DNA of 64,000 nt from Heterodontus francisci (lineage: Eukaryota), in assembly GCF_036365525.1 (NCBI RefSeq), contig NC_090418.1, forward strand, positions 7,356,304-7,420,303, in the 5' to 3' direction. Shown here one piece after another: positions 28,552 to 61,677 of this stretch. The notes beneath the pieces were generated by a model. That model saw only the letters and a list, made by a program, of their open reading frames with translations, made no database searches and was not told the origin of the DNA. Numbering within the stretch: position 1 is the first letter of the stretch; each line of letters opens with the position of its first letter. A program made the position numbers and the translations under genes.

Positions 28552-28911
28552 TCAGGGTGTTTGTCTTTCTTTGCAGTTGGCACTGGAAACTATTTCCCCA
28601 CCTTTTCCTTGCTCGGAACTTTCAGATTGGGCACGGTCCTTAATGTCATCCAGCGGGAGGCTCGCTCCTAAAAACTGGAGCCGAACTTCAGTTTGTTCCT
28701 CCTTTTGTTTCCCGAAGCGAATTTGCGTGTACAAACTTTGATCGCACTCTGATTCGAGGCAAGAGATTTCTGAGTAGACCTGACTTCTGCATTCTGCTGG
28801 GGGTTGAGCTGGCGCCAGTCTCTCCACTGGCACTGTGATCTCATTGTACAACACCATACCTGACCACATCGCCTCCTCGTTGGCGGCTTGGCATCTGTTC
28901 ACCCTGAGGAA
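28552..28911 (-). CDS. Gene 1 (CD28-family-like receptor) last exon: cytoplasmic tail with VLYNEI, QVYSEI, SLYTQI
   Basis: Phase-0 acceptor ...TTTAAC...CTCAG|TTC CTC AGG GTG; open 119 codons to TGA; three YxxI motifs. Confidence 0.75.
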   Translation of the reverse strand, partial: FLRVNRCQAANEEAMWSGMVLYNEITVPVERLAPAQPPAECRSQVYSEISCLESECDQSLYTQIRFGKQKEEQTEVRLQFLGASLPLDDIKDRAQSESSEQGKGGEIVSSANCKERQTP

Positions 28912-29199
28912 CTGAGCAGATCACGCAGATGTTAAATGGTCAATCGCGCCCCGAGGTCTGAGCGGGGTAGTCCAATCACGCAGCAGGAGAGCGCTAACAC
29001 TTGGCATTGGCACAAAGAATTGGCTGGTGAGCAAATCACTGCCAGTTTTGAGGCATTGGAAATGTCCATGAACAGGATGGCACAACACCCAATGTGTTAA
29101 TTCAAACCGTCACCTACCCGCTGATATAATAGATTGATGGGGCACCTACCTTGAGTTGTTACAGTCCCTCTGTCCCTTTCTCTCTGTCTGCCTACCTAT

Positions 29200-29580
29200 A
29201 CCTGTCCTGGGAGTGTTTACTCTGTATCTAACCCCCTTTTTTTTCCTTTTTTTTTGCTGCAATCAACACTCAGCACCTCCAATCAAGCAGCAGCTAACCC
29301 CATGCTGTACCTACCCTGGGAGTGTAGAGGGAGCTTTACTCTGTATCTAACCCTGTTTTTTTTTCTACAGAAATAAACAAAACTCAAATTAAAATGCCAT
29401 TCTCGGCGTAGACAATGCACTCCAGTTCCTGCGGTGCCCACCGGTCACGGAAGGCCTCAAGTGTACCGGCTGACACCGCATGCTCCTTCTCCAGGGACGC
29501 CCGGGCGCGAACGTAACCGCTGAAGAGGGGAGTATCTAACCCTGTGCTGTACCTGCCCTGGGAGTGTTTGATGGTGACGG
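29200..29580. repeat. Degenerate units of 70-bp satellite (ACTCTGTATCTAACCC...) containing retroinsertions
   Basis: Same unit as 30886-31157 and 61285-61545. Confidence 0.8.
29356..29531 (-). mobile_element. Tx1-clade LINE 3' end with 13-bp TSD
   Basis: Translates PLFSGYVRARASLEKEHAVSAGTLEAFRDRWAPQELECIVYAENGILI*; poly(A) tail; flanked by GTATCTAACCCTG at 29343-29355 and 29532-29544. Confidence 0.75.
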
Positions 29581-29697
29581 TGAAAATTGGGCCAGAACGT
29601 GGGGGTGAGATTGATCAGAACTGGACACGTTTCTCAAGGCAAAAAAGCCCTTCATTTGTTCCTGAATCATCCTCTGTAAGTTATAAGACACACTTGC

Positions 29698-29762
29698 CTT
29701 GTCCGATGGTAGGGCATAATCCTCGGCTTCTCGTCCAGCTTCCTGTGATTCTGCTCTGAATA
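29698..29762 (-). CDS. Gene 1 cytoplasmic exon (V)FRAESQEAGREAEDYALPSDK
   Basis: Acceptor TTTCTTGCAG| (phase 1); donor AAG|GCAAGT (GC-AG, phase 0), in frame with the last exon. Confidence 0.6.
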
Positions 29763-30735
29763 CTGCAAGAAATGCCCAAACGTCAGATAAAGAGGAATGA
29801 ACAGAAGGGAGCAGGAAACAGCCCTGAAAACAAAAGTCCCGCACGAATTGAACCTCTCCCAAATCTTCCCAAACTCAGTGAAAGGCTGGAAAGAAGGGGA
29901 GGCAATAAATCAGAAAGCATAGCCTTGGCGATAATGGAACAAGAGGAGGCCATTCAGCCCTTGAAACCTGTTCTATCATTCAATTAGATCACAGCTGATC
30001 TGTAGATGCCTTAAAAAGCCCAGTTACGAGGAAGTGCAGACAGTGACCATTGAAATGTTGAGATGGACAAGTATTTGCCAGAGCACAGATCTGCACTGTT
30101 GCATTGCTGAGATGCCAGTCCCCTGGGGTCTGGGGTCAAAATTAGCGACAACGCTTGGCGTGAGGTCAGGACCTGGCTGAAGCACGGCAGAACGTTAGCT
30201 GTATCATGAGGGGGGGGTAGCTCTCGTGCCCCTCCAAGTCAGAATGTTGAGGTGTGCCGTCCCAGTTGGTGGGGGGGCTCACGATCACAATCTCGGCTGA
30301 TAGGCCAGTGCAGTGCCATACTGCCGGAGGTGCCGTCTTTCGGGTGAGACGTTAAATCGAACCCTCTGGGATGGAGGTCAAAGACCTCATGGCTGCTGCT
30401 TCAAAGCAAACTGGGGGCTGTTCTCCCCGATGCCCGGGCCAACGTTCCAACCGGTACCCCCAAAAGCAGATTGGCTGATCACTGACTCTTTGTGGGATCT
30501 TGCTGTGCTGATTCTTTGCAGCAGGAAGACACGCATCAGATTGGGCAGAGAACGGGTCCAAGCTGAGATCTCCAGCTGAAAACTTTGGACCAATCGTGTG
30601 AAACGGAAGTTTTTGAGCTGGCCACCCATGATACATCACACCCGATTTTCCCACGTGGCACTGCCCCATGGGACACCCAAAGTCAAAACAGAGCCCAAGT
30701 ACACAGAACCGCCAGGACACACAGGCTGGACTCAC

Positions 30736-30810
30736 CAATGATCGATCTCGCCAACCACTGCCCCATCAGGGAGCAATGCAGTATTCTCAATCTGCCCCCG
30801 CCCAGGACGG
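30736..30810 (-). CDS. Gene 1 optional cytoplasmic exon AVLGGGRLRILHCSLMGQWLARSII
   Basis: Strong donor TTG|GTGAGT; phase 1-1; two in-frame acceptors (30810 or 30849). Confidence 0.4.
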
Positions 30811-30885
30811 CTATTGTGGAACATGAGAAATGCCACAGGGTGTGATCTTCTAGGGTTGGAAAAGAGCCACATAACCGGGCATTAA

Positions 30886-31157
30886 CTCTGTGTCTAACCC
30901 TGTCCTGTATCTGTCCTGGGAGTGTTTGATGGGGGACAGTGTAGAGGGAGCTTTACTCTGTATCTAACCCCGTGCTGTACCTGTCCTGGGAGTGTTTGAT
31001 GGGGGACAGTGTAGAGGGAGCTTTACTCTGTATCTAACCCCGTGCTGTACCTGTCCTGGGAGTGTTTGATGGGGGACAGTGTAGAGGGAGCTTTACTCTG
31101 TATCTAACCCCGTGCTGTACCTGTCCTGAGAGTGTCTGATGGGGACAGTGTAGAGAA
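30886..31157. repeat. 70-bp tandem satellite, about 4 copies
   Basis: TTTACTCTG recurs at 30952, 31022 and 31092. Confidence 0.92.
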
Positions 31158-31368
31158 TTACGTTATCTCATCAATGGACAGTCTCAGGAGCTAGAACTTT
31201 TTTTTCTCATTTCTTTCCCATGGGTCCTGAGGTCAATTGCCAAACAATGGCTGAAGTGAGAGAAATCGACTGAGCCCAGACCAGGAATGGGCAGTGCACA
31301 TTCACATTCTCCTTTGTGTCTTTATAATGTGACACTTGTACAATCATTTATTAACAGGTTATACGCAC

Positions 31369-31491
31369 CAGTCAGTCTGCTGCCTTTAACCAGGAGGCAT
31401 ATTATACACAACACGCACAGGAGGATCCCAGGGACCAACAGAGCCGGCAGCGGCCAATACAGATTCCTATAAAGATCAGGTGATCTTTCAT
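31369..31491 (-). CDS. Gene 1 transmembrane exon DERSPDLYRNLYWPLPALLVPGILLCVLCIICLLVKGSRLT
   Basis: Acceptor CTCTTTTTCAG|, donor CTG|GTGCGT, 123 nt, phase 1-1; uncharged hydrophobic segment. Confidence 0.85.
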
Positions 31492-31624
31492 CTGAAAAAG
31501 AGGAAGAATCATTACGTCAAATTCACTTCACTGAGAAATGTTTCACTGTCCCTTGTGCTTCAACCACCGTCCTGAATTGTCTAATCCAACTGGAATTTTC
31601 AATCTGTAGATCATGCCCACGGCT

Positions 31625-33987
31625 GTTACAAAAATTTCTAAATTCACTTGTAACAGCCCTTCAAAACACTCCCACAGGGGATGCTGAGACCAAGTGGGCC
31701 CACATCAGAGACGCCATCTATGACTCAGCAATGACCACCTATGGCAAACGTGCGAAGAGAAATGCAGACTGGTTTCAATCTCATAATGAAGAGCTGGAAC
31801 CTGTCATAGCTGCTAAGCGCATTGCACTGTTGAACTACAAGAAAGCCCCCAGCGATTTAACATCCGCAGCACTTAAAGCAGCCAGAAGTACTGCACAAAG
31901 AACAGCTAGGCGTTGCGCAAACGACTACTGGCAACACCTATGCAGTCATATTCAGCTGGCCTCAGACACCGGAAACATCAGAGGAATGTATGATGGCATG
32001 AAGAGAGCTCTTGGACCAACCATCAAGAAGATCGCACCCCTCAAATCTAAATCGGGGGACATAATCACTGACCAACGCAAACAAATGGACCGCTGGGTTG
32101 AGCACTACCTAGAACTGTACTCCAGGGAGAATGCTGTCACTGAGACTGCCCTCAATGCAGCCCAGCCTCTACCAGTCATGGATGAGCTGGACGTACAGCC
32201 AACCAAATCGGAACTCAGTGATGCCATTGATTCTCTAGCCAGCGGAAAAGCCCCTGGGAAGGACAGCATTACCCCTGAAATAATCAAGAGTGCCAAGCCT
32301 GCTATACTCTCAGCACTACATGAACTGCTATGCCTGTGCTGGGACGAGGGAGCAGTACCCCAGGACATGCGCGATGCCAATATCATCACCCTCTATAAAA
32401 ACAAAGGTGACCGCGGTGACTGCAACAACTACCGTGGAATCTCCCTGCTCAGCATAGTGGGGAAAGTCTTTGCTCGAGTCGCTCTGAACAGGCTCCAGAA
32501 GCTGGCCGAGCGCGTCTACCCTGAGGCACAGTGTGGCTTTCGTGCAGAGAGATCGACCATTGACATGCTGTTCTCCCTTCGTCAGATACAGGAGAAATGC
32601 CGTGAACAACAGATGCCCCTCTACATTGCTTTCATTGATCTCACCAAAGCCTTTGACCTCGTCAGCAGACGTGGTCTCTTCAGACTACTAGAAAAGATTG
32701 GATGTCCACCAAAGCTACTAAGTATCATCACCTCATTCCATGACAATATGAAAGGCACAATTCAACATGGTGGCTCCTCATCAGAGCCCTTTCCTATCCT
32801 GAGTGGTGTGAAACAGGGCTGTGTTCTCGCACCCACACTTTTTGGGATTTTCTTCTCCCTGCTGCTTTCACATGCGTTCAAATCCTCTGAAGAAGGAATT
32901 TTCCTCCACACAAGATCAGGGGGCAGGTTGTTCAACCTTGCCCGTCTAAGAGCGAAGTCCAAAGTACGGAAAGTACGGAACTCCTCTTTGCTGACGATGC
33001 TGCTTTAACATCTCACACTGAAGAGTGCCTGCAGAGTCTCATCGGCAGGTTTGCGGCTGCCTGCAATGAATTTGGCCTAACCATCAGCCTCAAGAAAACG
33101 AACATCATGGGGCAGGACGTCAGAAATGCTCCATCCATCAATATTGGCGACCACACTCTGGAAGTGGTTCAAGAGTTCACCTACCTAGGCTCAACTATCA
33201 CCAGTAACCTGTCTCTAGATGCAGAAATCAACAAGCGCATGGGTAAGGCTTCCACTGCTATGTCCAGACTGGCCAAGAGAGTGTGGGAAAATGGCGCACT
33301 GACACGGAACACAAAAGTCCGAGTGTATCAGGCCTGTGTCCTCAGTACCTTGCTCTACGGCAGCAAGGCCTGGACAACGTATGCCAGCCAAGAGCGACGT
33401 CTCAATTCATTCCATCTTCGCTGCCTCCGGAGAATACTTGGCATCAGGTGGCAGGACTATATCTCCAACACAGAAGTCCTTGAAGCGGCCAACACCCCCA
33501 GCTTATACACACTACTGAGTCAGCGGCGCTTGAGATGGCTAGGCCATGTGAGCCGCATGGAAGATGGCAGGATCCCCAAAGACACATTGTACAGCGAGCT
33601 CGCCACTGGTATCAGACCCACCGGCCGTCCATGTCTCCGTTATAAAGACGTCTGCAAACGCGACATGAAATCGTGTGACATTGATCACAAGTCGTGGGAG
33701 TCAGTTGCCAGCATTTGCCAGAGCTGGCGGGCATCCATAAAGACAGGGCTAAATTGTGGCGAGTCGAAGAGACTTAGTAGTTGGCAGGAAAAAAGACAGA
33801 GGCGCAAGGGGAGAGCCAACTGTGCAACAGCCCCGACAAACAAATTTCTCTGCAGCACCTGTGGAAGAGCCTGTCACTCCAGAATTGGCCTTTATAGCCA
33901 CTCCAGGCGCTGCTTCACAAACCAGTGACCACCTCCAGGCGCGTATCCATTGTCTCTCGAGATAAGGAGGCCCAAAAGAAAAGAAGA
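31625..33987 (+). mobile_element. 5'-truncated RTE-clade LINE in intron 2 of gene 1 (antisense)
   Basis: NYRGISLLS, QCGFRAERS, FIDLTKAFD, GVKQGCVLAP, LLFADD, C-terminal CxxC..HxxxC finger; one evident frameshift near 32970; (AAAG)-rich tail. Confidence 0.93.
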
Positions 33988-34734
33988 GATCATGTTGAAG
34001 GACGAGGGGGGAAAGGAAAGCCTGTCACACTTCCTGTTTGTGCCACATCCCCTCAAGTCCCCCCCCCCCCCCCCCCCCACCGTCCTCCATCATGGCCTTC
34101 AGCTGTGGCCCAGTGGATAGCTCGCCAAACTCGAACGCAAAATCCAGTCTGACGCTCCCAGTGCAGTACCGAGGGAGTGCTGCACTGTCAGCCGTGCTGT
34201 CTTTCAGAACAGACTTTAAACGAGGCTCTCCCTGGTGTCCTAGGCTGACACCTCTCCCTCAACCAACATCAGTGCAAACATGTCGCCTGGTCATTTACCT
34301 CACTGCTGTTTGTGGGATCTTGCTGTGCGAGCATTGGCTGCTGTATCTACTACAGTTCAAATGAAGAGTTTTCATTGGCTGTACAGGGGCTATGGGACAT
34401 CGCGAGGTGGTAAATGATGCTTTATTGACTCACGGAATGGTTACCACTCAGAGGGCGGCCTGTCAGGGCTGTGCTGGCTCTCTGTAAGAGCAACTCAGCT
34501 AAATTGAATTGCATAGCGCAGAAGGAGGCCATTTGGCCCCTCTTTCCCCATATCCCTCCCCTTCAAGCATTTACCCATTTCCCCCTTGACAGCCGCAACT
34601 GAATCCTTTCCCTCCGCCCTATCAGGCAGTGCCTTCCAAATCCAGACCGCTCAGCCTCCTTCCAGATTCCCTTCTGTCCTGTCTTTCTTCCCCAACTCTT
34701 GTTTGTTTATAAAATTACGGAGCAGCAGGATTAC

Positions 34735-35100
34735 CTGGTGTGACGATCATAAGGATTGTTCCATTACCCTTTCCGTGTTTGATTGGAGTTGGTCTTTCTA
34801 CCTGCAGGTGACAGTAATAAGTCCCATTGTCCCCTAGCTGAATACTCCTGATGTGTAACGTAGAGTGTTGAGATTCCCAATTGACACGGATGCTAAATCT
34901 GCCATCTGCACCATCTGAATTATAATGTTTTGAATTGTTGATGCTACGGGTACAGAGTGTGGCATTTCCCTTTACCCATTCGAGGAAAGCATCTGTTATG
35001 TTGCCTGAGGCATTGAAACTACAGGTTGCAGTCACATTTTCCCCGAGCCTGACGTTGAGATATGAGGGTGATTGTGAAACCAAGATTTTCATCTGTGCAC
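34735..35100 (-). CDS. Gene 1 Ig V-set exon (CD28/TMIGD2/NKp30-like, germline VJ-type)
   Basis: Acceptor GCTTTTCAG|, donor CAG|GTAATC, 366 nt, phase 1-1; VSQSP, B-strand Cys, LEW, RF, DNGTYYC, VERPTP loop, GKGNGT G-strand; 7 N-glycosylation sequons. Confidence 0.92.
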
Positions 35101-48486: not shown

Positions 48487-49656
48487 GACAGGAAACAGAG
48501 AGTAGTGGTTAATGGATGTTCTTCGGGCTGGAGGAAGGTTTGTAGTGGAGCTCCCCAATGGTCAGTGTTGGGACCCTTGCTTTTCCTGATATATATTAAT
48601 GACCTAGACCTTGGTGTACAGGGTACAATTTCAAAAGTTGCAGATGATATGAAACTTGGAACAATTGTGAGCTATGAGGAGGATAGTGTGTAACTTCAAA
48701 AGGGCATCGACAAGCTGGTGAAATGGGCAGACAGGTAGCAGATGAAGTTCAATGCAGAGAAGTGCAAAGTGATTCATTTTGGTAGGAAGAACATTGAGAG
48801 ACAAGATAAAATAAAGGGTACAATTCTAAAGGGGGTGCAGGAGCAGAGGGACCTAGGCGTATATGTGCATAAGTCATTGAAAGTGGCAGGACAGGTTGAG
48901 AGAGTGGTTAATAAAGCCTACAGTATCCTGGGCTTTATTAATAGGGACATAGAGTACAAGAGCAAGGAAGTTATATTGAACTTGTATAAGACACGAGTTC
49001 GGCCTCAGCTGGAGTATTGCGTCCAGTTCTGGGCACTGCACTTTAGGAAAGACGTGAAGGCGTAGGAGAGAGTACAGAAAAGATTCACGAGAATGGTTCC
49101 AGGGATGAGGAATTTCAGTTATGAGGATAGATTGGAGAAGTTGGAACTGTTTTCCTTGGAGAAGGGAAGGATGAGGTGATTTAATGGAGGTGTTCAAAAT
49201 CATGAGGGGTCTGGACAGAGTAGCTCGGGAAAAACCGAAAGGTCTGAGAACGAGAGGGCACAGATTTAAAGTGATTGACAAATGAAGATAAAACACACGA
49301 GGAAAATCTTTTTCATGTAGCGAGTGGTTAGGATCTGGAATGCACTGCCTGAGAGTGTGGCGGAGACAGGTTCAATCAAGGCTTTATAAAGGGAATTAGA
49401 CTGTTATCCGAAAAGGAAGAATGTACAGGGTTACGGGGCGAAGGCAGGTGAATGGCACTAGGTGAATATTCGGAGAGCTAGTGCGTGGTTAAAGATCTAC
49501 GTTTTTCTCACATGGAACGAGACTCCCAGTCCTTCGATATATTTGCATAAGTAGATGTGAAACGCATTTCACACCTTGAAGGTGGTGCATCGCTTAAAGC
49601 TAAGCTGACTGGAAGATGGGTTTGATACAGAGCTCTGGTTAAAATAACAATGGGCC
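48487..49656 (+). repeat. About 1.17-kb direct duplicate (CR1 RT/3' end plus 160-bp insert) of 54430-55599
   Basis: Near-identical sequence at offset 5943, with shared stop codons. Confidence 0.9.
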
Positions 49657-49693
49657 AAGTGGCCTCCTTCTGTGCTGTAACAAATATGTAACA

Positions 49694-52600
49694 CCGTGCA
49701 CTGTTCCGGTCTCCATAACACACTTGGAGCACCGTGCACAGTTCCAGTCTCCATATCACACTTGGAGCACCGTGCACAGTTCCAGTCTTCATATCACACT
49801 TGGAGCACTGTGCACAGTTCCAGTCTCCATATCACACTTGGAGCACCATGCACAGTTCCAGTCTCCATATCACACTTGGAGCACCATGCACAGCTCCAGT
49901 CTCCATATCACACTTGGAGCACCGTGCACAGTTCCGGACTCCATAATACACTTGGAGCACCATGCACAGTTCCAGTCTCCATAACACACTTGGAGCACCA
50001 TGCACAGTTCCAGTCTCCATATCACACTTGGAGCACCGTGCACTGTTCCGGTCTCCATAACACACTTGGAGCACCGTGCACAGTTCCAGTCTTCATATCA
50101 CACTTGGAGCACCATGCACAGTTCCAGTCTCCATATCACACTTGGAGCACCGTGCACTGTTCCGGTCTCCATAACACACTTGGAGCACCGTGCACAGTTC
50201 CAGTCTCCATATCACACTTGGAGCACCGTGCACAGTTCCAGTCTTCATATCACACTTGGAGCACTGTGCACAGTTCCAGTCTCCATATCACACTTGGAGC
50301 ACCATGCACAGTTCCAGTCTCCATATCACACTTGGAGCACCATGCACAGCTCCAGTCTCCATATCACACTTGGAGCACCGTGCACAGTTCCGGACTCCAT
50401 AATACACTTGGAGCACCATGCACAGTTCCAGTCTCCATAACACACTTGGAGCACCATGCACAGTTCCAGTCTCCATATCACACTTGGAGCACCGTGCACT
50501 GTTCCGGTCTCCATAACACACTTGGAGCACCGTGCACAGTTCCAGTCTTCATATCACACTTGGAGCACCATGCACAGTTCCAGTCTCCATATCACACTTG
50601 GAGCACCGTGCACTGTTCCGGTCTCCATAACACACTTGGAGCACCGTGCACAGTTCCAGTCTCCATATCACACTTGGAGCACCGTGCACTGTTCCGGTCT
50701 CCATAACACACTTGGAGCACCGTGCACAGTTCCAGTCTTCATATCACACTTGGAGCACCGTGTACAGTTCCGGTCTCCATATCACACTTGGAGCACCATG
50801 CACAGCTCCAGTCTCCATATCACACTTGGAGCACCGTGCACTGTTCCGGTCTCCATATCACACTTGGAGCACCATGCACAGTTCCAGTCTCCATATCACA
50901 CTTGGAGCACCATGCACAGCTCCAGTCTCCATATCACACTTGGAGCACCGTGCACAGTTCCGGACTCCATAATACACTTGGAGCACCATGCACAGTTCCA
51001 GTCTCCATATCACACTTGGAGCACCGTGCACAGTTCCAGTCTCCATATCATACTTGGAGCACCATGTACAGTTCCAGTCTCCATATCATACTTGGAGCAC
51101 CATGCACAGTTCCAGTCTCCATATCACACTTGGAGCACCATGCACAGTTCCAGTCTCCATATCACACTTGGAGCACCATGCACAGCTCCAGTCTCCATAT
51201 CACACTTGGAGCACCGTGCACAGTTCCGGACTCCATAATACACTTGGAGCACCATGCACAGTTCCAGTCTCCATATCACACTTGGAGCACCGTGCACAGT
51301 TCCAGTCTCCATATCATACTTGGAGCACCATGTACAGTTCCAGTCTCCATATCATACTTGGAGCACCGTGCACAGTTCCGGACTCCATAATACACTTTGA
51401 GCACCGTGCACAGTTCCAGTCTCCATATCACACTTGGAGCACCATGCACAGTTCCAGTCTCCATATCACACTTGGAGCACCGTGCACTGTTCCGGTCTCC
51501 ATAACACACTTGGAGCACCATGCACAGTTCCAGTCTCCATATCACACTTGGAGCACTGTGCACAGTTCCAGTCTCCATATCATACTTGGAGCACCATGCA
51601 CAGTTCCAGTCTCCATATCACACTTGGAGCACCATGCACAGCTCCAGTCTCCATATCACACTTGGAGCACCATGCACAGTTCCAGTCTCCATATCACACT
51701 TGGAGCACCATGCACAGCTCCAGTCTCCATATCACACTTGGAGCACCGTGCACAGTTCCGGACTCCATAATACACTTGGAGCACCATGCACAGTTCCAGT
51801 CTCCATATCACACTTGGAGCACCGTGCACAGTTCCAGTCTCCATATCATACTTGGAGCACCATGTACAGTTCCAGTCTCCATATCACACTTGGAGCACCG
51901 TGCACAGTTCCGGTCTCCATATCACACTTGGAGCACTGTGCACAGTTCCAGTCTCCATATCACACTTGGAGCACTGTGCACAGTTCCGGTCTCCATATCA
52001 CACTTGGAGCACCGTGCACAGTTCCGGTCTCCATATCACATTTGGAGCACTGTGCACAGTTCCAGTCTCCATATCACACTTGGAGCACTGTGCACAGTTC
52101 CGGTCTCCATATCACACTTGGAGCACCGTGCACAGTTCCAGTTTCCATATCACACTTGGAGCACCGTGCACAGTTCCAGTTTCCATATCACACTTGGAGC
52201 ACCGTGCACAGTTCCAGTTTCCATATCACACTTGGAGCACCGTGCACAGTTCCAGTCTCTATATCACACTTGGAGCACCGTGCACAGTTCCAGTCTCCAT
52301 ATCACACTTTGAGCACCGTGCACAGTTCCCTTCTCCATATCACACTTGGAGCACCGTGCACAGTTCCAGTTTCCATATCACACTTGGAGCACCGTGCACA
52401 GTTCCAGTCTCTATATCACACTTGGAGCACCGTGCACAGTTCCAGTCTCCATATCACACTTTGAGCACCGTGCACAGTTCCCTTCTCCATATCACACTTG
52501 GAGCACCGTGCACAGTTCCAGTTTCCATATCACACTTTGAGCACCGTGCACAGTTCCCTTCTCCATATCACACTTGGAGCACTGTGCACAGTTCCAGTCT

Positions 52601-54075
52601 CCATATCACACTTGGAGCACTGTGCACAGTTCCAGTCTCCATATCACACTTGGAGCACCGTGCACAGTTCCAGTCTCCATATCACACTTGGAGCACCGTG
52701 CACAGTTCCAGTCTCCATATCACACTTGGAGCACTGTGCACAGTTCCAGTCTCCATATCACACTTGGAGCACTGTGCACAGTTCCAGTCTCCATAACACA
52801 CTTGGAGCACCGTGCACAGTTCCCTTCTCCATATCACACTTGGAGCACCGTGCATAGTTCCAGTCTCCATATCACACTTGGAGCACCGTGCACAGTTCCC
52901 TTCTCCATATCACACTTGGAGCACTGTGCACAGTTCCAGTCTCCATATCACACTTGGAGCACCATGCACAGTTCCAGTCTCCATATCACACTTGGAGCAC
53001 TGTGCACAGTTCCGGACTCCATATCACACTTGGAGCACCATGCACAGTTCCAGTCTCCATATCACACTTGGAGCACCATGCACAGTTCCGATCTCCATAT
53101 CACACTTGGAGCACCGTGCACAGTTCCAGTCTCCATATCACACTTGGAGCACCGTGCACAGTTCCGATCTCCATATCACACTTGGAGCACTGTGTACAGT
53201 TCCGATCTCCATATCACATTTGGAGCACCGTGCACAGTTCCGGTCTCCATATCACACTTGGAGCACCGTGCACAGTTCCAGTTTCCATATCACACTTGGA
53301 GCACCGTGCACAGTTCCGATCTCCATATCACACTTGGAGCACCGTGCACAGTTCATGTCTCCATATCATACTTGGAGCACTGTGTACAGTTCCGATCTCC
53401 ATATCACATTTGGAGCACCGTGCACAGTTCCGGTCTCCATATCACACTTGGAGCACCGTGCACAGTTCCGGACTCCATATCACACTTGGAGCACTGTGTA
53501 CAGTTCCGATCTCCATATCACATTTGGAGCACCGTGCACAGTTCCGGACTCCATATCACACTTGGAGCACCGTGCACAGTTCCGATCTCCATATCACATT
53601 TGGAGCACCGTGCACAGTTCCGGTCTCCATATCACACTTGGAGCACCGTGCACAGTTCCGGACTCCATATCACACTTGGAGCACTGTGTACAGTTCCGAT
53701 CTCCATATCACATTTGGAGCACCGTGCACAGTTCCGGACTCCATATCACACTTGGAGCACCGTGCACAGTTCCGATCTCCATATCACACTTGGAGCACCG
53801 TGCACAGTTCCGGACTCCATATCACACTTGGAGTACTGTGTACAGTTCCAGTCTCCATATCACACTTGGAGCACCGTGCACAGTTCCAGTCTCCATATCA
53901 CACTTGGAGCACCGTGCACAGTTCCAGTCTCCATATCACACTTGGAGCACTGTGTACAGTTCCAGTCTCCATATCACACTTGGAGCACCGTGCACCCGGA
54001 CTCCACATCACACTTGGAGCACTGTGCACAGTTCCGATCTCCTATCACACTTGGAGCACCGTGCACAGTTCTGGT
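49694..54075. repeat. 38-bp minisatellite, about 115 copies, derived from CR1 ORF2
   Basis: Unit CACACTTGGAGCACCGTGCACAGTTCCAGTCTCCATAT; higher-order 456-bp and 266-bp periodicities visible in ORF offsets. Confidence 0.95.
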
Positions 54076-57308: not shown

Positions 57309-57422
57309 AGTCCCCACAGAGCACAGCGATTGGGATTCTGACGACGACGAGGCAGTTTCCACTTCATGAAGCTCTGTGAGAATTGATGAAACTCATGTGA
57401 GGAACATGAAATGATAATTTTC

Positions 57423-57428
57423 TTTATT
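57423..57428 (-). terminator. Candidate polyadenylation signal of gene 2
   Basis: AATAAA on the minus strand about 130 nt after the stop at 57556. Confidence 0.5.
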
Positions 57429-57555
57429 CCCAATAAGGGATGGAAAGGACATAAGAAATAGGGGCAGGACGAGGCCATTCAACAAGAGCACAGTTGATCT
57501 TCTACCTCATTTCTCGTCTTTGCTGAGTTTTCCTGGAGCTTGGCGTTCCCACTCT

Positions 57556-57644
57556 TCACAGGATAGTCGCGATGGTGAGGAGGAGCATGGTTACAAAGTA
57601 TTGACAGTACCTTCCAAGTGTGCATTCAGCACCGCTGGTTGCCC
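57556..57644 (-). CDS. Gene 2 last exon: GPI-signal-like C-terminus GATSGAECTLGRYCQYFVTMLLLTIATIL*
   Basis: Acceptor CCTTTGCTCGACAG|, phase 1; small-residue cluster (S-G-A), spacer, hydrophobic end, stop, no cytoplasmic tail. Confidence 0.75.
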
Positions 57645-58921
57645 CTGTCGAGCAAAGGTAAGCACAAGGCATTAAAGCACAAATTGGATCGACCCACAAT
57701 CATTTCAAGTATTGCATTACCTTGTGCCAAGTATCTATGTTGCAAACCCAATGCCGTTGGTTTTAGTCGGCATCCCAGGGTCCTCCTCTCATGCTTTCCC
57801 CGCAAGACCCCCAGACTATCTCCCACTCCCACCCCTGCCTCCCCCTGTCGCCACACCTTTCCGCTCAGTCCGACTGCCCCTGCACCCTTTCTCCATTCCA
57901 TTCTCCCCAAATCTCCCACCCACACCCTGCCAAGACCCCACTGAAGCATGGCTCGGGAATAGGGGATTCAGAAATCGCAGTGGTGGGCTGGAAATGAGGC
58001 CTTGGAGAGTTGGGGTGATGGGGGGGGGGAACAATCCATGGGGAAACGGCACGGAGGGACTGGAATTGAGTGGGACGGTTTATGGCGGGGCCGCGGGGGG
58101 AATGGGAGGGGGTGGCGCCAGGACGGGCACAAATGCTCCTTCTGATCCCGCAAAGTTTTAATTCCCGCCTTTTTCAGAGCTGCCCTCCGGTGGTTGCTTT
58201 GAGGCCTGCTAGTGAGGCCCAGGTCTATGCCAGTGTACCAACTGGTGGTGCTCTGGCACTCACTGCACTGTCCTGCAGCCACCCTGGTGCCTGGGAAACA
58301 GCGGGGGGGATGGAAAGGCGAGAAGACTCCCTCACTGTTCCCTGACTACGTTCCCACCCAAAAACAAGGGATGTCAATCAGACCAACCATGTGGCCTCAA
58401 AATAGGGGCCTCACCATCCCATTAGCAACAGACTATGTGGTGGCGGCCATCTTGAAAAGGGCCTTCAGCCTGGGCTGTCCAGAGTGCCTGTCTGATTCAG
58501 GCAATAGGCCCTGGAAATTGGGTCCTTAAGATGTAACTGGAACCTCCTGATTGCCATTTTAAGTAGAAATTAATCTGATACCTGCACTGTGCAAGCCATG
58601 ACCAGTTCTGCAGGCAACGGATGACAAGCGACGCCAGGCCCCTCCGCAATTGCGCCCACCACACTCCTCCCCCACCCCCACCCCCCCCCACCCCCACCCC
58701 ACGCCCCACAATCGAATTGGTTGCTTTTCAGTTCCAGCCCAGTTTCTCGGCTCGCCGGTCAAAAGTCGAATGAGGCCAGCCCCTCAAAATGGTGGAGGCC
58801 GGGGCCTCAAAATGGCTGCCGGGAATAGGCCTTAAAGTCAAAACCAGCTCTGTGTGTTGATTTTTGAGGAGCGCGTTGAATTGTCAAGGATAAATCGAAG
58901 AGGGACTCAAATCAGATTTAC

Positions 58922-59248
58922 CTGCGACCATGAAGCTCACGCATCCCTTCAGTCGTGTGGTGTGGTCTCCAAGGCAACATTCGTAGGGGCCTACTTGGGT
59001 GGCGTTGGGGCCTGGCACCCATCGGGTGACGGTCCCATTGGCAACTCTCGGTATGACTGTGCAATTCTCAGCCCGGAGTTCTTCTGTCAGCTCCCCTTTG
59101 CTCTGTGCAGGGAGGTAGTCAGATGAACCACGCCTACAGCTACAAGACGTTGGGTTGAAGCACTTTGGGTTAAAGTTCCATTGGAGATTCAGTTCTTCCC
59201 CTGCCTTCGCCGTTACCTGCGAGGGCGTTGCCCGGACGACATCTGCAC
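58922..59248 (-). CDS. Gene 2 exon: atypical Cys-rich Ig-like domain 2
   Basis: Acceptor CCCCGTTTCTAG|, donor CAG|GTAAAT, 327 nt, phase 1-1, open; VTAKAGEELNLQW and GPYEC; 7 Cys. Confidence 0.8.
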
Positions 59249-59824
59249 CTAGAAACGGGGGAAAACGACAGGGCATCATGGGCAGGTAGGCTCGGTGCAT
59301 CTGAAGGCAGTGCTAATAATCGGAGGCCATTCAGCCCCTCTGTGCCGGGTCTGTTAAAGAGCAGTCCAGTTAGTCCCACACCCCCACTCTCCTTATCCCT
59401 GCAAATTTTTATTTTTCCCATCAAATATTTATCCAATCCCCTTTTGAAAGCCCCGATTGAACCTGCCTCCAGCACACTCACAGGCAGCGCATTCCAGAGC
59501 CTAACTACTCGCTACACAAAGACATTTTTCCTCATGTCCCCCTCTGATTCTTTTACCTTAAATCGGTGCCCTCTGGTTATCGACGCTTCAGCCACTGAAA
59601 ACAGCTCCTCTCGGTCCACCCTGTCAAAACCCTTCAAGATTTTGAAGGCCACGATCAAACCTGCCCTTCACTTTCTAAGGAAAAGATCCCAGTTTTCCAA
59701 GCCTCTGCACGTCACTGAAATCTTTCACCTAGAAAGGCTTTGCGCTGCAGGCGAGCTCCGCGCTATGCCCCTTTAAGCGTCGGCATGGTAACAACATGTC
59801 CTGTGACCTTTTAAATCCCCTTAC

Positions 59825-60181
59825 CTTGATTGACTTCCAGCGATACCTCAGAGCAAATTTGACTTTTCAAGCTGGGGTTTAAACGAATATAACAGACGTA
59901 TGTCCCACTGTCTGTTGTCGTGACATCCTTGAGAGTGAGACTGGGATTTTTCTTCTTATGCCACTCTGGCTGCAGTCCAGTCCTGTGATGGTAGAGGATG
60001 TTCTGGTTGCTGCCGATGGCTTCTCCTGGGTGTTCAAAGACCACCAAGTCATCACCTGCGATTTTTTTCTGCCAGGTGACTCTTGGCTGCTTATCTTCAC
60101 CAGTAAATTGACAGGGAAGAACAACAGTGTCCCCACATACAGCCTGCGTCACGGAGTGGGTCTTGCGACACACAGACTGAC
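59825..60181 (-). CDS. Gene 2 Ig V-set exon, B7/butyrophilin-family-like
   Basis: Acceptor TTCCGTAG|, donor AAG|GTAAGG, 357 nt, phase 1-1; GDTVVLPC, WQK..LVV, QNILYHHRT, NPSLTLKDV..DSGTYVC. Confidence 0.92.
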
Positions 60182-60289
60182 CTACGGAATGAATGCACTC
60201 GGGTCAATACATACCCTCAGCCATGATCCTCTTGTCACAGACCCGAATGCCAGACAGTACAATGCACCACACCATTAACATACCGTTTG

Positions 60290-60515
60290 CTCCATGACCT
60301 TCTGGTCAGTTATTCTCCGTGACCTTGTCCTATCAACACCTTCTCTTTTGTTATTACTTGCCCCACCCCCGCTTTACTTGCTTAAAACCTTTTACATTTC
60401 TAATATCTGCCAGTTCTGATGAAGGGTCACTGAGCTGAAACGTTAACTCTGCTTCTCTCTCCACAGATGCTGCCAGAACTGCTGAGAACTTCCAGCATTT
60501 CTTTTTTTTATTTTA
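60290..60515 (+). mobile_element. Penelope-like element terminal (pLTR) fragment with minimal hammerhead ribozyme motif
   Basis: AGTT-CTGATGA-AGGGTCACTGAGCT-GAAAC-GTTA-ACT at 60412-60448. Confidence 0.65.
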
Positions 60516-60656
60516 GTACAATGCAAAAACTAGGTTCTGGAACATTAAAGCTAAACACCTTTAAACAGTCAGTGCCCTCGCCATTAAGTCAGGGTTTTGA
60601 GGGTGCGAGCCCCATCTTCGGAGACTTGAGCAGATAATACAGAGCAACTTTCCCAG

Positions 60657-61200
60657 TTCAGTACTGAGGGAGTGCTGCACTGTCAGAGGGTCAGTACTGA
60701 GGGAGTGCTGCACTGTCAGAGGGTCAGTACTGAGGGAGTGCTGCACTGTCAGAGGGCAGTACTGAGGGAGTGCTACACTGTCAGAGGGTCAGTACTGAGG
60801 GAGTGCTACAATGTCGGAGGGGCAGTACTGAAAGGCTGCTGCACTGTCGGAGGGTCAGTACTGAGGGTGTGCTGCAAATTTTGGAGGGTTGTACTGAGGG
60901 AGCATCGTAATGAGATCGCGCTGCACTGTCGGAGAGTCAGTACAGAGGGAGCGCTGCACTGTCGGAGAGTCAGTACAGAGGGAGCGCTGCACTGGCGGAG
61001 AGTCAGTACAGAGGGAGCGCTGCACTGTCGGAGAGTCAGTACAGAGGGAGCGCTGCACTGTCGGAGAGTCAGTACAGAGGGAGCGCTGCACTGTTGGAGA
61101 GTCAGTAGAGAGGGAGTGCTGCACTGTTGGAGAGTCAGTACAGAGGGAGCGCTGCACTGTTGGAGAGTCAGTAGAGAGGGAGTGCTGCACTGTTGGAGTT
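60657..61200. repeat. About 33-bp tandem repeat expanded inside a SINE
   Basis: Unit AGTACTGAGGGAGTGCTGCACTGTCAGAGGGTC; single-copy form occurs in SINEs at 34164 and 57060-57100. Confidence 0.9.
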
Positions 61201-61284
61201 GCCACCTTCTGAATGAGATATAAACACACGCCACCTGCTGGGGTGGATGCAAGAGATCCCCTCGCCATTAGTTCATAGGGAGAG

Positions 61285-61545
61285 ATTTACTCTGTATCTA
61301 ACCCTGTTTTTTATAGAATATCAGATACCCGGGAGTGAGTTACAGGCTGGAATATAGTTGAGTGATTTGGGAGTGTTCAATGGGGACAGTGTAGAGAGAG
61401 CTTTACTCTGTATCTAACCCCCGTGCTGTACCTGTCCTGGGAGTGTTTGATGGAGACAGTGTAGAGGGAGCTTTACTCTGTATCTAACCCCCGTGCTGTA
61501 CCTGTCTTGGGAGTGTTTGATGGAGACAGTGTAGAGGGAGCTTTG
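61285..61545. repeat. 70-bp satellite units
   Basis: Same unit as 30886-31157. Confidence 0.88.
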
Positions 61546-61607
61546 TTGAACAGAACCTTTAGTAACTATTTAAAGTGAAGACATTCTCCATATAGACCGC
61601 ATCTTAC

Positions 61608-61677
61608 CAACACACAACTGAGGCATCCAAAGCAGCAGCAGCAGAAACTGATAGTAGATCCCTGACGAGTAGCTCAT
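61608..61677 (-). CDS. Gene 2 signal-peptide exon MSYSSGIYYQFLLLLLWMPQLCV(G)
   Basis: Hydrophobic leader, phase-1 donor TTG|GTAAGA; upstream acceptor TGTTTCAG| at 61696 implies a 5'-UTR exon. Confidence 0.85.

What the first reader, a model, noticed from the sequence alone, without database searches (positions are those of the whole stretch)
57556..61677. B7-like protein predicted to be GPI-anchored
After two Ig exons the only compatible exon I found encodes GATSGA, a spacer, FVTMLLLTIATIL and a stop, followed by AATAAA. This is the layout of a GPI signal with no cytoplasmic tail. Most B7 members are type-I TM proteins; B7-H4 is the short-tailed exception. Domain 1 has three extra Cys (VCRK, VCGD, ICSE), suggesting additional or intermolecular disulfides.
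Basis: partly seen in the sequence, partly recalled or inferred. Interest (0 to 1): 0.7.

Follow-up and report, generated by a model that had tools for sequence, protein, structure and literature searches.

The report
Shark lipid-anchored B7-like ligand beside receptor
This spliced shark gene encodes a surface protein with two antibody-like domains and no cytoplasmic tail; it is likely held on the cell by a GPI lipid anchor and is predicted to bind the likely inhibitory immune receptor encoded next door, which would make the two a linked ligand-receptor pair of the B7/CD28 type.

Summary
Four phase-1 exons give a 280-aa protein identical to a RefSeq model. The exon 3-4 junction is spliced in 6 of 6 runs laid. 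All 7 shark and ray orthologues end in a tail-less hydrophobic stretch, 5 with an SGA omega motif, so a GPI anchor is likely (about 0.75; no PI-PLC test). Against: a close relative reads 14 polar residues past the stop. The extra cysteines are likely intramolecular: C28/C133 are kept or lost together, and C39 goes with domain-2 C172. Domain 2 has lost its B-strand Cys and gained a C-strand Cys, as in CD4 domain 2. It is not B7-H4 and fails two B7 criteria; it belongs to an unnamed extra-disulfide IgV group whose amphibian and coelacanth relatives are transmembrane. Its V domain is predicted to bind the adjacent two-ITIM VJ receptor (0.80 against control 0.01; may reflect likeness to CD28/B7). 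The scan had no note on this gene but noted a similar pair on other DNA (e1-9856228).

The parts
61608..61677 (-). Exon 1 (coding part): ATG and signal peptide, residues 1-23, phase-1 donor
   Evidence: joint to exon 2 in X1 and X7; best 11-mer hydropathy 1.96
59825..60181 (-). Exon 2: B7/butyrophilin-type IgV domain (residues 24-142), canonical C47-C120 plus C28, C39, C133
   Evidence: Pfam V-set E 1.5e-11; PDB hits CD276, BTN3, B7-H4; pLDDT mostly 83-95 over residues 31-140, one block 68
60168..60170 (-). C28, likely bonded to C133 (59853-59855)
   Evidence: both present in 20 of 23 aligned V domains, both absent in 3 (one Hypanus gene), never one alone
60135..60137 (-). C39, likely bonded to domain-2 C172 (59160-59162): interdomain clamp
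   Evidence: both present in all 13 two-domain genes; C39 absent in 6 of 6 single-V rows
58922..59248 (-). Exon 3: divergent second Ig domain (residues 143-251); B-strand Cys replaced by W166, C-strand Trp replaced by Cys (C180 or C178), CC at 233-234, C245; 3 N-glycosylation sequons
   Evidence: beta-sandwich model at pLDDT about 40-67
57556..57644 (-). Exon 4: predicted GPI signal (omega likely S255 at 57634-57636, spacer, hydrophobic end) and TGA stop at 57556-57558
   Evidence: joint from exon 3 in 6 of 6 runs laid; rule and conservation
57423..57428 (-). AATAAA poly(A) signal
   Evidence: matching contigs end at 57430-57491 and no run laid covers 57310-57376 (weak hint only)
34735..35100 (-). 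Neighbour gene: VJ-type IgV exon (PTPI FG loop, GxG J motif), predicted binding partner
   Evidence: Pfam V-set E 6.9e-14
31369..31491 (-). Neighbour gene: transmembrane exon without a charged residue in the hydrophobic span
   Evidence: my exon model; splicing not tested
29698..29762 (-). Neighbour gene: short cytoplasmic exon (GC donor in my model)
28552..28911 (-). Neighbour gene: last exon with two ITIM-consensus motifs (VLYNEI, SLYTQI)

Best explanation
The gene is spliced into a 280-residue, tail-less protein with a B7-type V domain and a divergent second Ig domain that is likely GPI-anchored, likely locked by internal disulfides, and predicted to act as a cell-surface ligand for a CD28/NKp30-type VJ receptor, most likely the two-ITIM receptor encoded 24 kb downstream. 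Shown: exon structure, splicing, conservation across sharks and rays, the neighbouring receptor exons. Inferred: the signal peptide takes it into the ER; the GPI transamidase cuts after S255 and swaps the last 25 residues for the glycolipid (about 0.75); disulfides 47-120, 28-133, 39-172 (between domains), 234-245, 180(or 178)-233 and 178(or 180)-205 use all 12 ectodomain cysteines, giving a rigid monomer (about 0.8 for the first three, 0.5 for the rest); the GFCC' face of the V domain receives the receptor's proline FG loop as in CTLA-4/B7, so a cell bearing it would damp the receptor-bearing leukocyte, with no signal back into the ligand cell (about 0.6 for a receptor of this family, 0.4 for this neighbour).
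For: Gene model equals RefSeq P0001. Last-exon joint in 6 of 6 runs laid, no other joint listed. 7 of 7 elasmobranch two-domain orthologues and 3 of 3 shark single-V relatives pass a home-made GPI rule; 0 of 11 other family rows and 3 of 135 unrelated hits do. SGA stands at 255-257 in 5 of 7, matching the omega+2 preference for Ala/Gly (PMC2119539 abstract). The best 19-mer hydropathy is 1.28 against 2.46-3.29 for six transmembrane relatives. Cysteine co-variation. Complex model: score 0.80, best of 3 controls 0.01, runs agree in at least 86% of contacts, partner pLDDT at least 81; the mark was reached by 51 of 78 solved and 2 of 108 mismatched pairs, and by 39 of 65 solved and 2 of 126 unrelated eukaryote pairs. 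Three of the four family genes on contig C48 lie 25-34 kb from a VJ exon on the same strand, and a Heptranchias read-through model joins the orthologue to what appears to be the same downstream gene.
Against: No GPI predictor or PI-PLC test was run; the rule is my own and passes 488 of 5000 shuffles. In organism B (one sample, three runs, depth 9-18) the stop is a Cys codon and 14 mostly polar residues follow; that reading fails the rule and has a 19-mer of 2.08. Pristis has Met at the aligned omega+2 and needs another site. RefSeq X1 has no signal peptide. The complex pass may come from likeness to solved CD28/B7 pairs: close cousins of true partners passed 10 of 12 times and blind neighbours 7 of 44, and five other VJ exons lie on the contig. 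The 17 predicted interface positions are no more conserved than the rest of D1 (0.46 vs 0.42, p 0.35). Domain 2 is modelled at low confidence and no coordinates were available to measure S-S distances.
Confidence: 0.5

Rival explanations
1. The C-terminal stretch is an uncleaved short membrane anchor, as B7-H4 is often drawn: a type-I protein with a zero-to-14-residue tail. It would still be a non-signalling ligand.
For: 17 uncharged residues follow R263. Organism B has a 20-residue hydrophobic span and a short basic tail. Amphibian and coelacanth relatives are transmembrane. B7-H4 is only partly PI-PLC sensitive (PMC3817299 passage).
Against: Hydropathy is low for a TM (1.28). The small-residue motif 25 residues from the end is better conserved (0.71, 0.71, 0.48) than its neighbours at 259-260 (0.14). 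No orthologue among 7 has a basic stop-transfer tail.
Confidence: 0.2
2. It is GPI-anchored but serves as an epithelial adhesion molecule or shed pathogen decoy, like GPI-linked CEACAM5/6, and its place beside the VJ receptor is only the result of local clustering of immune Ig genes.
For: GPI CEACAMs arose by stop codons in TM exons and were proposed as decoys (PMC2832619 passages); the family here also has TM and tail-less members. Orthologues are only 36-49% identical. 17 non-synonymous against 11 synonymous codon changes separate organisms A and B among the differences listed, four of them at 122-128.
Against: Single copy per species among the hits, not an expanding cluster. Q61, L69, V70, R123 and S130 on the binding face are invariant in 7 of 7. 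Non-synonymous changes are not enriched in the predicted interface (3 of 10, p 0.16). The complex model passed.
Confidence: 0.25
3. The main product in some tissues is a read-through fusion of exons 1-3 with the downstream receptor's V, TM and ITIM exons, giving a three-domain inhibitory receptor; the GPI form is only one isoform.
For: All exons are phase 1 and on the same strand. A Heptranchias model (P0152) does read through into the next gene.
Against: That model is out of frame in the V exon. The only joint from exon 3 listed in four runs goes to exon 4, and no loose end was shown at 58921 (18 loose-end rows not displayed). All RefSeq accessions listed for this cluster end in exon 4.
Confidence: 0.05

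Closest known systems
B7 family ligands (CD276/B7-H3, ICOSL, PD-L1) and butyrophilins
   Same: B7-type IgV on one exon followed by a second Ig; best PDB sequence hit CD276; top fold match ICOS-L, Z 15.4, rmsd 8.1, 183 aligned, with Siglec-1, PD-L1 and VSIG4 within 1 Z unit; predicted use of the GFCC' face for a proline FG loop.
   Different: No TM or tail; domain 2 matches no C1 or CD80-type C2 profile; three extra D1 cysteines that the genome's B7-like V exons lack.
B7-H4 / VTCN1
   Same: Two Ig domains, hydrophobic end with almost no tail, reported partial PI-PLC sensitivity (PMC3817299 passage).
   Different: A separate V exon on contig C10 has B7-H4 as best PDB hit (E 4.9e-15); the query scores E 1.3e-4 against it and does not group with it.
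CD4 domain 2 cross-strand disulfide
   Same: PMC4354306 (section 12 part 1 and passages) describes B-F disulfide, then loss of the B cysteine, then gain of a C-strand cysteine. The same three states appear here: B-F in Heptranchias, amphibians and coelacanth; B lost in two rays; C-strand Cys in four sharks.
   Different: Not a CD4 relative: V domain on a single exon, no cytoplasmic Cx(C/H) motif. The bond here is inferred from alignment only, and redox activity is untested.
GPI-anchored CEACAM5-8; CD48/CD58 (the latter recalled)
   Same: Ig family with both TM and GPI members; GPI forms made by a stop in or near the hydrophobic exon (PMC2832619 passages). CD48 and CD58 are two-domain GPI ligands linked to their receptors (recalled).
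   Different: V domain is B7-like in sequence, not CEA- or CD2-like.
CD28H/TMIGD2, CD28HL1-3 and NKp30-type VJ receptors (for the neighbour)
   Same: Joined VJ domain with GxG and a proline CDR3 loop; CD28HL3 carries ITIM/ITSM (PMC11599192 parts 2-3 of 6).
   Different: The neighbour has ERPTPI, not EIP(PP); its flanking genes are not those given for any CD28H or CD28HL locus; CD28HL3 was not found in Chondrichthyes in that paper.

Membership tests
B7 family | N-terminal IgV closest to B7/butyrophilin V domains | tested here: met
   CD276, BTN3 and B7-H4 among top PDB hits; profile hit CD276 E 3e-38
B7 family | Membrane-proximal IgC with canonical B-F disulfide and C1/CD80-type C2 profile (feature recalled) | tested here: not met
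   W166 replaces the B cysteine; no C1-set or C2-set_2 match for the query's D2 or for 10 of 10 relatives scanned
B7 family | Type-I transmembrane segment and cytoplasmic tail | tested here: not met
   Stop directly after the hydrophobic stretch; relatives in amphibians and coelacanth do have one
B7 family | V domain nests among canonical B7 genes in a tree | tested here: inconclusive
   Mixture-model tree unresolved at depth; LG+G4 tree puts 14 B7-like and fish rows on one starred branch (96/85) apart from the query; no human B7 rows were available
B7 family | Binds a CD28-family receptor | tested here: inconclusive
   Model only: 0.80 against best control 0.01, may pass by likeness
B7-H4 / VTCN1 orthologues | Best reciprocal match to B7-H4 in the genome | tested here: not met
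   L011 on C10 matches B7-H4 far better
GPI-anchored proteins | N-terminal signal peptide | tested here: met
   Hydrophobic core in isoform X2 (1.96); absent in X1 (0.35); exon 1-2 joint in X1 and X7
GPI-anchored proteins | Small omega and omega+2 residues, polar spacer, terminal hydrophobic stretch, no tail | tested here: met
   Home-made rule: S255, A253 or A251 pass; 7 of 7 orthologues pass; organism B reading fails
GPI-anchored proteins | Cleavage of the propeptide and PI-PLC release | not testable with these tools
   Needs expression in cells
CD4 / LAG-3 | D1 split by an intron; TM with Cx(C/H) or FPAL(D/E) tail | tested here: not met
   Single V exon, no tail; features from PMC4354306 and PMC10768021

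The most novel reading that the evidence does not exclude
An undescribed ancient lineage of B7-like checkpoint ligands, marked by an A-G disulfide and an interdomain disulfide, sits in repeated cassettes with its own germline VJ receptors beside C1r/C1s-like and SPSB genes. It is GPI-anchored in sharks and rays, transmembrane in coelacanth and amphibians, has no amniote member among the hits named here, switches anchor type by a single stop-codon change between close shark relatives, and has independently evolved a CD4-like cross-strand disulfide that could act as a redox switch.
Probability: 0.3. Interest if true: 0.72.

Novelty: new variant of a known kind. Interest (0 to 1): 0.5.

Why it matters
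Shark CD28-like and NKp30-like receptors are mostly orphans. This locus names a concrete candidate ligand, a predicted interface and a testable anchor for one of them. If linked ligand-receptor cassettes hold, they give a model for how B7/CD28-type co-signalling arose next to non-rearranging VJ genes. The natural stop-codon difference between two close sharks is a ready-made test of GPI versus transmembrane anchoring, and the second domain offers an independent replay of the cysteine series described for CD4 domain 2. If the binding fails, it is one more tail-less Ig protein of modest interest.

Tried and rejected
Intermolecular disulfide from the extra D1 cysteines: rejected, since each has a co-varying partner. 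B7-H4 orthology: rejected. CD4/LAG-3 kinship, considered because of the D2 cysteine pattern and the C1r/C1s-like and SPSB neighbours: rejected on exon structure; the synteny itself is not established, as TPI lies on contig C111 and the only MLF hits on C11. Hidden TM exon near or in the masked stretch: a scan of acceptors downstream of exon 3 gave hydrophobic frames that read as antisense repeat-derived frames, apart from the neighbour's TM exon (judged by eye); the masked letters could not be read, but they lie beyond the poly(A) signal. Single-sequence fold was useless (pLDDT 41). Word-index searches found only the protein itself or caecilian relatives. ESM Atlas gave only generic Ig clusters. 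Foldseek did not discriminate among two-Ig proteins. Monophyly of the 20-row family was not shown (4% and 0% of bootstrap trees; AU p 0.267, not rejected; four rows were dropped and three added for the second tree). Interface conservation and interface-biased change were not significant. No D2 or last exon was found for the paralogue at C48:6.24 Mb. Pfam scans covered 418 flanking or window ORFs of 62 aa or more out of 940 unmasked ORFs, so short exons of neighbours may be missed. Paper searches found no description of this gene; the 2012 B7-evolution paper (Xenopus B7HXen genes, recalled) was not held, and no supplements were read, so an earlier mention there cannot be excluded.
Full report
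1. Observation. The region holds a minus-strand gene of four coding exons, 61677-61608, 60181-59825, 59248-58922 and 57644-57556, all joined in phase 1, giving 280 residues and a stop, with AATAAA at 57428. The product is identical to P0001, which its source names an uncharacterized Heterodontus francisci protein, isoform X2. Isoform X1 has a different, non-hydrophobic N-terminus from an exon about 4 kb beyond the window's end and the same C-terminus. The V exon is single-copy at DNA level in G000.

2. Splicing. Seven runs hold the stretch, none on record as RNA; six were laid. All six have a contig that skips 57644-58921 with GT-AG ends, which is what a spliced transcript gives. They come from two samples: organism A, which matches the window, and organism B, about 95% identical in the exons. 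Over 57310-59290 this was the only joint listed; 18 loose-end rows were not displayed. The exon 1-2 joint appears in X1 and X7, and single contigs of X5-X7 run through exons 2, 3 and 4.

3. Orthologues. A full HMMER search gave full-length matches in five other elasmobranchs and a fragment from a sixth, whose cluster holds a full-length member: Heptranchias, Cetorhinus, Stegostoma, Pristis, Hypanus and Scyliorhinus, 36-49% identical. All end in a hydrophobic stretch with at most five further residues. Positions 255-257 read SGA in 5 of 7. A rule of my own (small omega and omega+2 after PMC2119539, abstract only; polar spacer; hydrophobic end) passes 7 of 7 of these, 3 of 3 shark single-V relatives, 0 of 11 other family rows, 3 of 135 unrelated hits and 488 of 5000 shuffles of the query's tail. 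The query's best 19-mer hydropathy is 1.28; six transmembrane relatives from salamanders, caecilians and coelacanth score 2.46-3.29 and have tails of 27-77 residues. I put GPI anchoring at about 0.75.

4. The result against. In organism B the stop codon is a Cys codon and the frame runs 14 more, mostly polar residues to a new stop. That reading fails the rule and has a 19-mer of 2.08. It rests on one sample at low depth, though three runs agree. By parsimony it is derived, since the other six species stop near the window's position. It shows that one codon separates a GPI-type end from a short-tailed anchor, the reverse of the route described for primate CEACAMs (PMC2832619 passages).

5. Cysteines. 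The mature ectodomain (25-255) has 12. In the 24-row alignment C28 and C133 are both present in 20 of 23 V domains and both absent in the 3 Hypanus isoforms. C39 and C172 are both present in all 13 two-domain genes; C39 is absent from 6 of 6 single-V rows, the only unpaired case being a domain-skipping caecilian isoform. These patterns point to an intradomain 28-133 bond and an interdomain 39-172 bond. In domain 2, Heptranchias, five amphibians and coelacanth keep B-strand Cys, C-strand Trp and F-strand Cys; the two rays lack the B Cys at 166 (Pristis has one at 165); four sharks lack it and have Cys in place of the Trp, three of them with Trp moved to 166. The two alignments differ on whether C180 or C178 holds that place. 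This is the series reported for CD4 domain 2, whose C-F cross-strand bond is redox-active (PMC4354306, section 12 part 1 and passages). Here it is inference: the model has D1 mostly at pLDDT 83-95 but D2 at about 40-67, and gave no coordinates. All 12 cysteines can pair internally, so no intermolecular bond is needed.

6. Family. The V domain is closest to CD276, butyrophilins and B7-H4 among solved structures; the fold search ranks ICOS-L first, within 1 Z unit of Siglec-1, VSIG4 and PD-L1. Domain 2 matches no C1 or CD80-type profile in the query or in 10 relatives. The genome has separate B7-H4-like and CD276-like V exons on other contigs, without the extra cysteines. The seven two-domain elasmobranch proteins form a supported clade in both trees (96/95 and 97/94); one tree separates the canonical B7-like rows from the extra-cysteine group on a starred branch, the other is unresolved, and monophyly of the group is neither shown nor rejected. 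It works like a B7 ligand; membership is not established.

7. Neighbourhood. Contig C48 has four V exons with the 28/133 pair, at 6.24, 7.27, 7.42 (query) and 7.44 Mb. The last exons found for the 7.27 and 7.44 Mb genes are short and hydrophobic. Six VJ-type exons and four Siglec/PILR-like V exons lie among them (the PILR label is recalled). Three of the four family genes lie 25-34 kb from a same-strand VJ exon. The window's VJ gene, in my exon model, has an uncharged TM and two ITIM-consensus motifs. Flanks hold two C1r/C1s-like genes, a BIR gene, an SPSB gene and DAGAT genes; C1R/C1S and SPSB2 lie at human 12p13 (recalled), but this synteny was not confirmed. PMC11599192 (parts 2-3 of 6 and passages) lists no CD28-family locus with these neighbours.

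8. Partner. Folding the query's V domain with the neighbour's VJ domain scored 0.80, 0.76 and 0.80 against a best control of 0.01; runs agreed in at least 86% of contacts, partner pLDDT at least 81; my alignments were not used. The mark was reached by 51 of 78 solved and 2 of 108 mismatched pairs, and among eukaryotes by 39 of 65 and 2 of 126. The receptor's PTPI loop lies on residues 59, 61, 68-70, 121 and 129-130 of the query, the CTLA-4/B7 geometry (recalled), so the pass may be from memory; close cousins passed 10 of 12 times and blind neighbours 7 of 44. Five interface residues are invariant in 7 orthologues, but the interface as a whole is not more conserved than chance (p 0.35).

9. Novelty and verdict. 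Five paper searches found no description; the 2012 B7 paper was not held and supplements were not read. PMC12227049 (abstract, passages), PMC12151841 (passages) and PMC10768021 (passages, section 10 part 1) did not mention it in what I saw. The scan had no note on this place or sequence but one on a similar GPI-IgV/VJ pair elsewhere in the genome, which I did not check. Verdict: a real, conserved, likely GPI-anchored B7-like protein of an unnamed group, with a plausible linked inhibitory receptor. New variant of a known kind; interest 0.5.

Noticed in passing
window 28552-35100 (-): VJ-type IgV receptor gene with uncharged TM and two ITIM-consensus motifs; no convincing leader exon found.
   Followed up: partly
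window 57516-57558, runs X5-X7: Organism B lacks the stop codon and reads 14 residues further.
   Followed up: partly
L016:4403-5481 (+) and L044/L045 (C48:7264468-7275385, -): Two single-V paralogues with the 28/133 cysteine pair and short hydrophobic last exons, each with a Heptranchias counterpart.
   Followed up: partly
L054 (C48:6239906-6240316) and L077:971-1459: Fourth paralogue, grouping with the amphibian TM proteins in the first tree, 31 kb from another VJ exon; its 3' exons were not found.
   Followed up: partly
L052:4999-9215 (+): Three tandem, closely related VJ exons about 2 kb apart with an extra cysteine pair; one multi-domain receptor or three genes.
   Followed up: no
L018-L020 (C48:7463249-7488703, +): Four Siglec/PILR-like V exons; two have Ser in place of the Tyr before the F-strand Cys and one frame stops early.
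   Followed up: no
L036-L038 and L015:4226-6944: Two tandem C1r/C1s-like genes with single-exon protease domains, and an SPRY plus SOCS-box gene lying between the query and its head-to-head paralogue.
   Followed up: partly
L014:4183-4329 (-): Alternative first coding exon of RefSeq isoform X1, without a signal peptide.
   Followed up: no
window 49500-54050 and 60650-61200: Long arrays of short tandem repeats; most other long ORFs of the window look like LINE or Penelope-type retroelement remains (labels recalled).
   Followed up: no
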